Shown one piece after another: positions 24,001 to 27,000 of a DNA stretch of 64,000 nt. Location: the NCBI RefSeq assembly GCF_013167455.1, contig NZ_CP038328.1; one strand, given 5' to 3'. The DNA is from Escherichia coli O157:H7. Its GTDB lineage: Bacteria > Pseudomonadota > Gammaproteobacteria > Enterobacterales > Enterobacteriaceae. Every line of letters begins with the position of its first letter. The stretch's first letter is position 1. The position numbers were made by a program.

Positions 24001-27000
24001 CGATGAACTGACCTGTATGACAGCGCGAATTAACCGTGGTGAGACGATACCTGAACCAGTAAAACAACTTCCTGTTATGGGCGGTAGACCTCTAAATCGT
24101 GCACAGGCTCTGGCGAAGATCGCAGAAATCAAAGCTAAGTTTGGGCTGAAAGGAGCAAGTGTATGACGGGCAAAGAAAGATTCTTCGTTACTTGAAGAAA
24201 TACAGTGTTTATTGTTCTTTTGAGATGTTGCGAAAACAGGAATTACCACGGTAAACATTTTGTAGCTGACCCATGCATTGATGAAATATTGTGGGTATTT
24301 AATAGAGCATAATTATCAAGTTGCGTAAGATGTGGAGTAATGGTATGGGCGGTGTTAGCACCGCCTTTAATTAAAGCTCAGAAAGCTGTGATAATATTTT
24401 TTCTGGAGTGGTTTCGTTGGAAATGCTAAATAATACAGCACCTTTGACTGATTCATCTCTCATTTCAATTTCACATGAATTATGGTTGTATGAGATTGCA
24501 TAATTTTTTAATGTTCTTTCGCTTTGCCACCACACCATATTTGCAAGACTTCCGTTATACGTTCTTATCTCGATTGATCCGGGCAGGGCTTTCCAGATAA
24601 CACCTCCTAGCAATGTAAGAGCGGCTGCACCAACATTTTTTGCATGATGGTTAGAACGTTCCATTACCCCTTCAGCATAACGATGAAGAATCTCTATGTC
24701 AGTCGCTTTGATAGTCATGTTATTTCCATGTAATTGCTGTGTGAAACGTAGTGTTAGTTAGGTGTTAGCAGAATATAGCATCAAAGTCGAAACCGGTAGA
24801 AAAAATATTGGTGATTATTTCGCTGCATTTGGAACTGGAACAACAATGATTATTAGCATGATTGCTTTTTCCAGTCATAAGAATGAGTCGTGTTAATTTT
24901 TTCTATTCAATAGGAAATTATCATGTCATCAGAATATGAACAACTACGGTGACTTCTGCGCTAAACGGGGACGTTTATGCGCACATACAATCCAAACTCT
25001 CTTCTCCCTCCACAGATGCAGAAATACACCTGCGATTTTTTGCATTCGGTGTTTTTGGCAGCCAAGAACAGGGAGTCTCTGTTTGTCTGGCGGCTAAAGG
25101 TGATATGGAAATCGTGATGTCTTAGCCTAAAGTAGTTGCAACAGTTGGAGCGATTATGGTGGTAGTAGTGATCATCGCGCCCCCCATATGCAAGGGTTGA
25201 CGACATTATTTATCCGGCGCTATATTCTGTGCGTTGCCGCAAAATCGGCACACGGGATTGGCGTCCCGGACATCAAAACGACGCATAACCGCGTTCGCGG
25301 TTTTTTTATGCGCAGTGCACGTCTACACAAAAATTATGGTGGGCTGTGTGAGGGCTTCTTCGGAAGCGCCGGATTTCGTTTTGACCGGTTACGCCAACCT
25401 TGCACAGTCCACCACCAGTCGATTGGCGTCGTCGGTGGTGATAGCTCAAATTCAAAACGAGATTATCGCTATGGTCACTCAGCTCGCATTCCGCGATGTA
25501 AAATTCACTCCTATAAATCACAACAACCAGATCTGGTTTACCAGCAAAGAATTGGCGGCAGCATTAAAATATGCCAGCACCAAAGCAGTAACCGACATCT
25601 ACAACAAAAATATTGATGAGTTTACTGACGGAATGTCTCAGGTCGTCGAATCAACGACCTCAGGAAATTATCGTAAGAAGACTCGCATTTTCTCCCTCCG
25701 TGGCGCCCATCTGATCGCCATGTTCGCCCGCACTCCTGTGGCCAAAGAATTCCGCCGCTGGGTGCTGGATATTCTTGATCGAGAAATTCAACAATCCCCA
25801 ATCACAAAACAATTCACTGATAACGAACTTTGCACACTTGCTTGGTTATGGCGGGCAAGTGACACAATGTTAACCGCTTGCCAAAACGTCACTCCGCTTC
25901 TTCAGGTAGCAGAACACCGCGAAGCCGGTCGCTTCACTTCAATCGAACAAGAATATCCCCGGATACTCAATAAGGCACAGGCAATCCTTGCCAGAGAAAC
26001 GGCACATGTAAAATTCCGGCCGTGGCAGGATGATAAGTGGAGTCGAGTATTGACGCATTTACGTTCTGAACGGCTGTAATAAAGTTGCGGGAGAGAAATG
26101 CCGCTAGTATTTTGTAATTAATTGAATGCTGACGGTTTAATGAGAAGTCAAGAACACTACTTGTACTATAATCGTTCGATGTTAGTGAGGGTTTGATGCA
26201 AAAAATGAAGTGATTGACCCTAAATTTGCGCGATCAGCGACAGATTGTACACCGAGATCCTGTGGGCTGGAATTTGCAGAGAAATACCGAAAATGATATC
26301 CAATATTGTTTTCAGTTCCTACATCATACCTGATAAGGGTATAATCATAAAAATTAGGATAATTCAAGTTATAATTGTATGAATAAAAACGACCTTGAAG
26401 CATTATCTGACACTAGGCTTAATGAGGCCAAATGCTTGCTTGATCATGGCTTTTTTCATGGTGCATATTATCTTTGTGGGTATGCAGTTGAATGTGCATT
26501 GAAGGCCTGTATTGCCAAGTCATTTTTACAACATGAGTTTCCAAACAAAAAAGTCGTAAATGATTCATATACTCATGATTTGTCGCAACTTCTCAAAATT
26601 GCCAACTTACATCAAATTTTGATTGCTGACGCAAAAAATGATGTTTCGTTGGAGATTAACTGGTCGGTCGTTAAAGACTGGAGCGAGCAATTTAGATACG
26701 ACAATAACATAAGTAAAGCTATGGCCGAACAATTGTTTGATGCTGTAGGTGACCAAAATTCTGGAGTTTTGAAATGGGTAAAAGCACACTGGTAATCGGC
26801 AGAGAGTTGACAAAAGATATGGAATTCTCAGGTCAATTTTTGTTAAAAAAACTCAAGTTACAGAATTTAACTATTGATGCTGCAATGTGGTTTTATTACC
26901 CAGATCTATCTTGGAGATATATTTTAGTTATCAGTGACTTCTCAGAACGTGGGCCGGCAGAAATATATAGAAAAATCAGTGAGATAAATAGAAATAGCAT

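What the first reader, a model, noticed from the sequence alone, without database searches (positions are those of the whole stretch)
24371..24718. Orphan opposite-strand gene in the ren position
A 115-aa ORF of ~30% GC is transcribed against the early-right operon between P and the cassette, where lambda encodes ren (an exclusion-related gene). A hairpin abuts its stop codon. I recognise no family. An independently transcribed, compositionally foreign gene at a known accessory hotspot is a good candidate for an exclusion, defence or anti-defence function.
Basis: partly seen in the sequence, partly recalled or inferred. Interest (0 to 1): 0.45.

Follow-up and report, generated by a model that had tools for sequence, protein, structure and literature searches.

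The report
Vch_cass14-family moron replacing lambda ren
The opposite-strand ORF is a real, self-contained gene in an E. coli O157:H7 lambda-like prophage; it belongs to a small family (Pfam PF18315, crystal structure 3IMO) of ligand-pocket proteins carried by mobile DNA, and nobody knows yet what that family does.

Summary
A 115-aa ORF lies at 24371-24718 on the minus strand, directly after a P gene 97% identical to lambda P. It sits in a ~720-bp AT-rich segment that replaced ren; a ren 5' remnant survives. A GC hairpin lies 5 nt past the stop. GC is 38.5% (GC3 30%), not ~30%.

An extended -10 box (TGCTATATT) travels with the gene in E. coli and Citrobacter. In 9 of 10 viral contigs examined, both neighbours face the other way.

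Elsewhere the family is mobile-element cargo: integron cassettes, plasmids, a recombinase-bounded element, restriction/defence neighbourhoods and probable large phages. Recurrent neighbours are AbiU1/AIPR (2 loci), Fic (about 5) and one Xer-like recombinase subfamily (10).

It matches no known defence model and no other fold. A role in mobile-element conflict is plausible but unproven, and its direction is unresolved.

The parts
24371..24718 (-). CDS, 115 aa, Vch_cass14-family (PF18315) protein; identical to WP_000152742.1
24772..24780 (-). Probable promoter: extended -10 box TGCTATATT, 53 nt upstream of the ATG; no good -35
   Evidence: The box is identical in the Citrobacter prophage copies. 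It is TGCTATGTT in two viral contigs and CGCTAAATT in Pantoea, while the sequence further upstream is unrelated. In Citrobacter it overlaps a divergent gene in a different reading frame from the E. coli + strand ORF, so a shared coding constraint does not explain it (inference). It was not picked up by the -35/-10 scan. No transcript data.
24723..24727 (-). Weak Shine-Dalgarno-like GGAAA, 4 nt before the ATG
   Evidence: Read from the sequence. Homologues have stronger AAGGGG / AAGGAG / TAGGAG at the same place.
24348..24365 (.). GC-rich stem-loop (7 bp, loop of 4) 5 nt after the stop codon. No U-tract on the ORF strand; followed by TTTAATT on the + strand
   Evidence: Fold energies and z-scores. 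Not called a terminator on either strand by the scan. Citrobacter copies have a different GC hairpin at the same position, -14.8 kcal/mol, z -3.4.
24164..24196 (+). Remnant of the 5' end of lambda ren, overlapping the P stop and now a 10-codon dead ORF
   Evidence: Alignment with lambda P-ren.
24197..24920 (.). The replaced segment (moron cassette), ~720 bp, 36-41% GC, bounded by lambda-like sequence on the left and phage-82-like nin sequence on the right
   Evidence: The 774-bp query 24167-24940 is at least 99% identical in 180 of 5426 complete E. coli genomes, always chromosomal.

Best explanation
What it is (shown): a single-gene moron that replaced most of ren in a lambdoid prophage of E. 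coli O157:H7. The same cassette also occurs in O26, O103, O111 and other strains. It encodes a full-length, selectively maintained member of the Vch_cass14 / PF18315 family.

How it is probably expressed (inferred from sequence): from its own extended -10 promoter, against the direction of the pR early operon. It would therefore be made in the lysogen, when pR is repressed. During lytic growth it would be opposed by antisense read-through from pR. The stem-loop after the stop would end or stabilise the short transcript.

How it probably works (inferred from the 3IMO structure and family conservation): a cytoplasmic homodimer that acts alone. Its working part is a deep, ~15 Å hydrophobic tunnel. 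The mouth of the tunnel carries near-invariant Tyr14, Arg21 and Asn60, which hold an acetate in 3IMO. Near-invariant His24, His25 and His79 are also conserved, but their positions relative to the mouth could not be measured here. The protein would bind, or possibly convert, a small amphipathic ligand with an acidic head and a roughly C10-C12 tail.

Why a phage carries it (inferred from context only): the family is almost exclusively cargo of mobile elements and defence or restriction neighbourhoods. The most likely biological role is therefore in conflicts between mobile elements, phages and hosts. For this copy, lysogen-type expression slightly favours protection of the lysogen (exclusion or defence) over counter-defence.
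For: Identity and fold:
- Pfam PF18315, E 6.5e-20.
- 3IMO by sequence, E 1.3e-17; by profile, 5.8e-46.
- AF2 model pLDDT 97.2 with the published b-a-a-b5-a order.

Pocket:
- All 20 pocket residues listed for 3IMO (PMC3548836) are identical or conservatively replaced, using the residue-by-residue alignment.
- Y14, R21, H24, H25, N60, W63, Y73, Y77, H79 and G93 are each present in about 86-97% of 132 relatives. All are present in this protein.
- Y14, H24, H25, N60, W63 and H79 are invariant even in 23-36%-identical members from other contexts.

Selection: pS 0.74-0.83 against pN 0.16-0.23 for E. coli versus Citrobacter, Pantoea and Serratia.

Autonomy:
- The -10 box is conserved with the gene while the flanks differ.
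- Both neighbours lie on the opposite strand in Citrobacter and Pantoea prophages and in 9 of 10 IMG/VR contigs examined. These include 49-63%-identical copies beside a phage methyltransferase/ParB pair and near a P2-type portal gene.
- The founding family member is an integron cassette, which is by nature a one-gene unit.
- Clustering of neighbours across about 50 loci found no universal partner.

Conflict context:
- AbiU1/AIPR lies 35 nt upstream in Serratia and 383 nt downstream in a Bacteroidaceae MAG.
- One copy sits after a type I restriction-modification specificity/methylase gene and one ORF before a PDC-S11 candidate.
- Other loci lie beside an MmeI-type enzyme with TacA, a type II methylase, and a Fic protein reached through a 164-aa unknown.
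- One copy sits in a serine-recombinase element with ArdC, an orphan methylase and a caspase-like protein.
- Among first and second neighbours there are also HicAB, Gp49/HTH, PIN, TIR and GmrSD_N hits.
Against: - No transcript, protein or phenotype data exist for any family member that I could find.
- There is no match to PADLOC or NCBIfam models.
- The linear density in 3IMO was never identified, and the crystal was grown from PEG3350.
- The basic sheet surface of 3IMO is not a family trait: median pI is 6.5 and this protein has pI 6.1.
- Residence in defence islands is association, not partnership, and I had no control set to quantify enrichment.
- The promoter is a sequence inference. The generic scan gave 4 promoter-like sites against 3.3 expected.
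- Divergent members lie co-directionally in arrays of small genes on probable large-phage contigs. That fits a phage-side (counter-defence) role at least as well as a host-side one.
Confidence: 0.5

Rival explanations
1. Counter-defence or antitoxin-like neutraliser. The protein would inhibit or buffer a host or rival-element system, for example an AbiU1-, Fic- or nuclease-type effector, or would sequester a signal that such a system uses. Phages and conjugative elements would carry orphan copies to disarm it.
For: - It lies directly beside AbiU1/AIPR in two distant phyla. In the lactococcal prototype the AbiU system likewise has a second gene, abiU2, beside abiU1.
- It is the first gene of operons that end in Fic.
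- It lies in an element with ArdC and an orphan methylase.
- It lies in co-directional arrays of small genes on 86-kb and 67-kb contigs with phiKZ_IP and T4_Y16D hits.
Against: - In temperate phages it is oriented against the early operon and appears to have its own promoter. That is unusual for an early counter-defence gene.
- The tunnel is hydrophobic and poorly suited to nucleotide signals.
- Residues invariant across phyla do not look like an arms-race interface.
- No AIPR or Fic gene is annotated within about 8 kb of the cassette.
Confidence: 0.2
2. A host-fitness (lysogenic conversion) factor unrelated to phages. A small binding protein or enzyme would sequester or modify a hydrophobic acid, lipid-like signal or xenobiotic, in the manner of binding-type resistance cassettes.
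For: - The structure shows a ~15 Å hydrophobic tunnel with Arg/Tyr/Asn holding a carboxylate (acetate) at the mouth, and a co-purified linear ligand.
- Integron cassettes and plasmids are classic carriers of small-molecule resistance genes.
- There are strictly conserved His, Tyr and Asn residues, as in an active or head-group site.
- The cassette is widespread in cattle-associated STEC.
Against: The neighbourhoods are dominated by recombinases, restriction-modification, Abi and toxin-antitoxin genes rather than metabolic or efflux genes. Presence in probable virulent phages is hard to explain on this reading. No related enzyme or binding fold is known.
Confidence: 0.2
3. An accessory or regulator of site-specific recombination or mobile-element maintenance. 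The E. coli copy would then be a detached relic of such a module.
For: Ten loci carry the gene on the same strand, immediately upstream of one specific Xer-like tyrosine recombinase subfamily (391-660 bits to a five-seed HMM). They come from Alpha- and Betaproteobacteria, three plasmids and a metagenome. In four of them the stop and start overlap by 4 nt; in most of the others one or two small variable genes lie between. The family protein there is only 28-54% identical to the query. Some homologues carry Lys/Ala/Pro-rich histone-like tails.
Against: The prophage, integron and large-phage copies have no such recombinase next to them. The core is not basic in most members. A buried hydrophobic tunnel is not a feature of known directionality factors (established knowledge). 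The module could simply be cargo at the integrase end of small elements.
Confidence: 0.08
4. A chance ORF or a decaying pseudogene with no function.
For: All 180 E. coli copies are at least 99% identical, so selection cannot be judged within E. coli. The Shine-Dalgarno sequence is weak. There is no match in sequenced phage isolates.
Against: It is a full-length match to a family with a solved structure. Every near-invariant residue is retained. Purifying selection between genera is strong. Homologues have the same length, 112-116 aa, across phyla.
Confidence: 0.02

Closest known systems
Vch_cass14 (PDB 3IMO), Vibrio cholerae integron cassette protein; Pfam PF18315
   Different: This copy is carried by a lambdoid prophage with its own promoter-like element rather than as a promoterless attC cassette. 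It has a two-residue insertion at 65-66 shared by the enterobacterial clade. It is slightly acidic (pI 6.1), whereas the paper stresses a basic sheet surface for 3IMO. The function is unknown in both.
Lambda ren
   Same: Same genomic slot, directly after P. Both are accessory, non-essential genes of the early-right region.
   Different: No sequence similarity: BLASTP finds nothing at E <= 100. Opposite strand, and not part of the pR operon. The cassette destroyed ren, of which only the first ~33 nt remain.
Classical lambdoid morons (for example lambda bor and lom, HK97 gp15); from established knowledge
   Same: An extra gene between two genes that are adjacent in related phages. Distinct base composition. 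Its own promoter-like element and a 3' stem-loop. An orientation and logic suited to expression from the repressed prophage.
   Different: The product is a soluble cytoplasmic protein of an uncharacterised fold, not an envelope protein. Expression in the lysogen has not been shown.
AbiU (AbiU1/AIPR plus AbiU2) abortive-infection system
   Same: Family members sit next to AbiU1-like genes in Serratia (PADLOC AbiU, 6e-53) and in a Bacteroidaceae MAG (2.1e-26).
   Different: AbiU2 is a HEPN protein, not PF18315. The window has no AIPR gene near the cassette. The gene order differs between the two linked loci, and no experiment links the two proteins.
Small phage 'sponge' proteins (Tad1/Tad2, Acb2); analogy only, from established knowledge
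   Same: A small oligomeric protein whose only evident feature is a conserved ligand pocket, encoded by mobile elements.
   Different: No sequence or fold similarity was found. The pocket is hydrophobic rather than nucleotide-shaped. The orientation suggests expression in the lysogen.

Membership tests
Pfam PF18315 / Vch_cass14 family | Significant match to the family HMM over most of its length | tested here: met
   E 6.5e-20, 71.5 bits, residues 12-104 against model positions 2-92 of 97. A profile built from 107 relatives hits 3IMO at 5.8e-46.
Pfam PF18315 / Vch_cass14 family | Two-layer alpha+beta sandwich with order b1-a1-a2-b2-b3-b4-b5-b6-a3 | tested here: met
Pfam PF18315 / Vch_cass14 family | Hydrophobic tunnel residues and the polar mouth Tyr14/Arg21/Asn60 | tested here: met
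   All 20 listed positions are identical or conservative: A5, L11, Y14, A15, V18, R21, S22, A26, V29, A33, L36, L37, V40, I49, I51, N60, V62, I75, Y77, I84 (alignment against the list). Family-wide conservation.
Pfam PF18315 / Vch_cass14 family | Homodimer through the helix faces | not testable with these tools
   Only monomer prediction is offered, and no coordinates are returned. The hydrophobic helix residues said to form the interface are conserved.
Pfam PF18315 / Vch_cass14 family | Binds a small linear ligand | not testable with these tools
   Needs purified protein. In 3IMO the ligand itself was never identified.
Lambda Ren | Sequence similarity to Ren | tested here: not met
   No BLASTP alignment at E <= 100.
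Lambda Ren | Encoded on the pR strand directly after P | tested here: not met
   The position is met, but the strand is opposite.
Integron gene cassette | attC recombination site and position in an array next to an integron integrase | tested here: not met
   The repeat search found no attC-like imperfect inverted repeat flanking the gene. The locus is a lambdoid prophage with no integron integrase annotated nearby.
Known or candidate anti-phage defence systems (PADLOC-DB 2.0) | Match to any model | tested here: not met
   0 families at E <= 1. As positive controls from the same window, the SIR2 gene hits PDC-S25 at 2e-235 and the HEPN gene hits PDC-M28A weakly at 1.8e-07.
Moron (independent transcription unit inserted in a phage operon) | Lies between genes that are adjacent in related phages, with deviant composition | tested here: met
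   It replaces ren between P and the nin region. GC is 38.5% against 53.4% for P.
Moron (independent transcription unit inserted in a phage operon) | Own promoter and own terminator | tested here: inconclusive
   A conserved extended -10 box and a positionally conserved 3' hairpin are present. There is no -35, no U-tract on the gene strand, no call by the generic scan and no transcript data.
AbiU two-gene system | AbiU1/AIPR gene adjacent | tested here: not met
   None is annotated within about 8 kb on either side in identical records. Adjacency is seen only in Serratia and a Bacteroidaceae MAG.

The most novel reading that the evidence does not exclude
PF18315 would be a new class of stand-alone, pocket-based factor in mobile-element conflicts. 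On this reading a ~113-aa dimer confers phage exclusion, or neutralises a defence or toxin module such as AbiU1 or Fic, by binding or converting a lipid-like or acidic small molecule. Its tight coupling to one Xer-like recombinase subfamily would mark a previously undescribed small mobile module that disseminates it.
Probability: 0.3. Interest if true: 0.65.

Novelty: new member of a known kind. Interest (0 to 1): 0.4.

Why it matters
The family has had a crystal structure since 2009 but no function. This copy sits in a genetically tractable place: a lambda-like prophage of E. coli, present in 180 complete STEC genomes. Knock-out, plasmid expression and phage-panel challenge are routine there. 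A phenotype would assign a role to about 280 sequence clusters spread over many phyla on integrons, plasmids, prophages and probable large phages. It would also explain their links to AbiU1, Fic and a Xer-like recombinase. If nothing is found, this remains one more accessory prophage gene of unknown function.

Tried and rejected
- NCBIfam and PADLOC scans of the protein gave no hit.
- tblastn against 50,697 sequenced phage records gave no hit, so the gene is known only from prophages and metagenomic contigs.
- A profile search of PDB sequences found only 3IMO.
- Literature searches for the family name, the Pfam and InterPro ids and the RefSeq accession returned only the 2013 structure paper.
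- Three context look-ups landed on contigs under 2 kb.
- The broad alignment A1 was too diverse for locus fishing; a narrower one worked.
- All-against-all clustering of neighbours found no universal partner.
- I suspected that several neighbours were HEPN proteins because of Rx4H motifs. This was confirmed only weakly, for one of them (MtlR family, E 1.9e-5), so I dropped it.
- Integron-integrase identity of the linked recombinases was rejected: 26-41 bits against a cut-off of 265.
- A Rho-independent terminator for the gene strand was rejected because there is no U-tract.
- Rfam found nothing inside the cassette.
- I did not establish whether reference strains with published transcriptomes (Sakai, EDL933) carry the cassette, so I could cite no expression data.
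Full report
**1. The observation**

The ORF is there as described: 24371..24718, minus strand, 115 aa, ATG start. The gene upstream on the plus strand (23465-24166) encodes a protein 227/233 identical to lambda P. In lambda, ren follows P directly.

Aligning the junction shows ren's first ~14 nt intact (ATGACGGGCAAAGA, overlapping the P stop). About 20 further nt are recognisable but diverged, and then similarity ends. On the other side, similarity to the start of the phage 82 nin region resumes at about 24920-24937. So a segment of about 720 bp (roughly 24197-24920) has replaced ren.

The segment is AT-rich: 36-41% GC in 300-bp windows.

The hairpin is GGCGGTG-TTAG-CACCGCC at 24348-24365, 5 nt from the stop codon. 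It folds at -13.2 kcal/mol (z -3.3) on the ORF strand and -19.8 kcal/mol (z -4.6) on the plus strand.

**2. It is a real gene of a known family**

The protein matches Pfam PF18315 (VCH_CASS14) at E 6.5e-20. It matches PHROG 5959 (unknown function) at 1.2e-80 and PDB entry 3IMO at 1.3e-17.

RefSeq calls the product "hypothetical protein" (WP_000152742.1). One record names it "Vch_cass14 family protein".

Between the E. coli gene and its Citrobacter, Pantoea and Serratia counterparts, synonymous sites are saturated (pS 0.74-0.83) while pN is 0.16-0.23. Two Citrobacter copies differ only synonymously.

**3. What is known about the family**

The only paper I found is the structural-genomics report PMC3548836. 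It makes four points.
- Vch_cass14 came from a V. cholerae chromosomal integron by cassette PCR.
- It is a homodimer in solution and in the crystal.
- Each subunit is a b-a-a-b5-a sandwich enclosing a deep hydrophobic pocket about 15 Å long.
- The pocket holds unidentified linear density. Tyr14, Arg21 and Asn60 at its mouth hold an acetate and a water molecule.

No function was proposed.

With the residue-by-residue alignment, all 20 listed pocket positions are identical or conservatively replaced in the window protein.

In 132 full-length relatives, Y14, R21, H24, H25, A26, V29, G38, N60, W63, Y73, Y77, H79, I84 and G93 are each present in more than 80% of sequences. N78, E85, R87 and N101 are present in 64-76%, and all of these are present in the window protein. 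Y14, H24, H25, N60, W63 and H79 stay invariant in members only 23-36% identical to it. The three histidines are not discussed in the paper, and I could not measure their geometry because no coordinates are available to me.

The basic sheet surface stressed for 3IMO is not a family trait. The median pI of 185 members is 6.5, and this protein has pI 6.1.

**4. Distribution**

An exhaustive HMMER search of 1.84 billion representatives found 282 clusters at E <= 1e-3. Nearly all are stand-alone proteins of 105-125 aa.

A pattern scan of one genome per species found 49 loci. They come from Alpha-, Beta- and Gammaproteobacteria, Bacteroidota, Cyanobacteria, Myxococcota, Planctomycetota, Acidobacteriota, Leptospiraceae and others. 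This is a thin, patchy spread typical of horizontally moved accessory genes.

In E. coli the 774-bp query 24167-24940 is at least 99% identical in 180 of 5426 complete genomes. It is always chromosomal and single-copy, and is found mostly in STEC O157, O26, O103 and O111. The stretch tested, window 18500-31500, is 100% identical to a prophage of O157:H7 strain 17B6-2 and several others. The same cassette sits after P in an O26 prophage with a different immunity region.

**5. Signs that it is an independent unit**

Upstream of the ATG, the E. coli and Citrobacter copies share TGCTATATT, an extended -10 box at window 24780-24772, 53 nt before the ATG. Sequence further upstream is unrelated. Two viral contigs have TGCTATGTT, and the Pantoea type has CGCTAAATT. 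In Citrobacter this box overlaps the start of a divergent gene, read in a different frame from the small plus-strand ORF of E. coli. A shared coding constraint therefore does not explain the conservation (inference).

The generic promoter scan did not single the box out and found no more sites than expected. The promoter remains an inference.

The Citrobacter copies also carry a GC hairpin right after the stop, with a different sequence (-14.8 kcal/mol, z -3.4). Neither hairpin is followed by a U-tract on the gene strand, so I do not call it an intrinsic terminator. On the plus strand the E. coli hairpin is followed by TTTAATT and could attenuate pR read-through.

Orientation is the strongest argument. 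Both neighbours lie on the opposite strand in Citrobacter and Pantoea prophages and in 9 of 10 IMG/VR contigs examined. These include copies 49-63% identical beside a phage methyltransferase/ParB pair and near a P2-type portal gene.

**6. Context elsewhere**

No neighbour is universal. Three recurrent linkages stand out.

(a) One specific Xer-like tyrosine recombinase subfamily (391-660 bits to a five-seed HMM) lies on the same strand, immediately downstream, in ten loci.
- They come from Alpha- and Betaproteobacteria, three plasmids and a metagenome.
- In four loci the stop and start overlap by 4 nt. In most of the others one or two small variable genes lie between.
- The family protein there is only 28-54% identical to the query.
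- These recombinases are not integron integrases: 26-41 bits against a cut-off of 265.

(b) An unknown 164-aa protein followed by a Fic protein lies downstream in about five Alphaproteobacterial loci. These may not be independent events.

(c) AbiU1/AIPR lies 35 nt upstream in Serratia marcescens and 383 nt downstream in a Bacteroidaceae MAG. AbiU1 equals the AIPR family, and AbiU2 is a HEPN protein.

Other loci show:
- a copy after a type I restriction-modification specificity/methylase gene, one ORF before a PDC-S11 candidate;
- a copy beside an MmeI-type enzyme and TacA, and one beside a type II methylase;
- a copy in a serine-recombinase element with ArdC, an orphan methylase and a caspase-like protease;
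- HicAB, Gp49/HTH, PIN, TIR and GmrSD_N hits among first and second neighbours.

Two divergent members lie co-directionally in dense arrays of small unknown genes on 86-kb and 67-kb contigs with phiKZ_IP and T4_Y16D hits. These are probably large virulent phages.

I had no control set, so "enriched near defence genes" is a qualitative statement.

**7. Interpretation**

Shown: the gene's identity, fold, conservation, purifying selection, replacement of ren, and the antisense single-gene arrangement in temperate phages.

Inferred: expression from its own promoter in the lysogen; action as a stand-alone dimer through the conserved tunnel; and a role in conflicts among mobile elements, phages and hosts.

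The direction of that role is unresolved. Lysogen-type expression favours protection of the lysogen. Linkage to AbiU1 and Fic, and presence in probable virulent phages and in an ArdC element, favour a neutralising or counter-defence role.

Two further readings remain open: a small-molecule binding or resistance function unrelated to phages, and an accessory role with the linked recombinase.

The gene has nothing in common with Ren except the location.

**8. Verdict**

This is a new member of a known but functionally uncharacterised family. It is not a new kind of element, and it is not a member of any described defence system.

Its interest is moderate. It is a good, cheap experimental entry point to a structurally solved orphan family with suggestive neighbours. 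Nothing computed here makes it surprising in itself.

Noticed in passing
window 19143-20750 (-): A 535-aa SIR2-family ORF of 29.7% GC lies next to the prophage repressor, in a rexAB-like position. It matches PADLOC candidate PDC-S25 at E 2e-235 and has a ThsA STALD-like stretch. It is a likely lysogen-expressed defence gene.
   Followed up: partly
window 25197-26079 (+): A P1 immI-like control module lies just right of the cassette. It comprises a promoter-like TTGACG/TATATT, C4 target sites a1/b1 (25220-25272), isrK (25235-25307), C4 antisense RNA (25332-25419, 82.5 bits), and then a P22AR-C-terminal antirepressor-like CDS.
   Followed up: partly
window 26379-27175 (+): A HEPN-domain ORF (138 aa, weak PADLOC PDC-M28A hit) overlaps a 133-aa ORF with no hit. 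Both are 34-37% GC. This is a second foreign insert before ninB, possibly a HEPN toxin/partner pair.
   Followed up: partly
window 29763-30014 (+) and downstream: A tRNA Met(CAT)/Arg/Arg cluster follows Q, as in Stx phages; RefSeq calls the first tRNA Ile. In the identical O157:H7 record only a short pseudogene, and no stx gene, lies between the tRNAs and the DUF6645 gene.
   Followed up: partly
window about 21660-21882 (+): In the identical RefSeq record the cro-like YdaS-family gene is annotated as frameshifted, so the prophage may be impaired for lytic growth. I did not verify this.
   Followed up: no
window 24769-24779 and 25219-25229: The 11-nt string GCTATATTCTG occurs at the cassette's -10 region on the minus strand and again at the -10 of the c4/isrK operon promoter on the plus strand. 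This may be chance.
   Followed up: no
L006, L024, L025, L029, L030, L034, L036, L102, L103, L104: There is a conserved module: PF18315 gene, then 0-2 variable small genes (for example DUF2513), then one specific Xer-like tyrosine recombinase subfamily. Genes are often overlapping, and the module is found on plasmids and chromosomes of Alpha- and Betaproteobacteria. It may be an undescribed small mobile or recombination module.
   Followed up: partly
L099 4001-4351 and L100 4001-4354: Divergent PF18315 members (about 28-29% identical to the query in the multiple alignment) lie inside co-directional arrays of small unknown genes on 86-kb and 67-kb contigs with phiKZ_IP and T4_Y16D hits. These are probably large virulent phages.
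   Followed up: partly
proteins P0053, P0119, P0143, P0120: There are rare fusions. One is a 377-aa protein with an N-terminal repeated domain and a C-terminal PF18315 domain. Three others have Lys/Ala/Pro-rich histone-like C-terminal tails.
   Followed up: no
L002 4206-6348 (Serratia marcescens): An AbiU1/AIPR gene (586 aa) and a PF18315 gene, 35 nt apart, form an apparent two-gene island between a TolA-like gene and a Usp gene. The arrangement was seen on all contigs displayed.
   Followed up: partly
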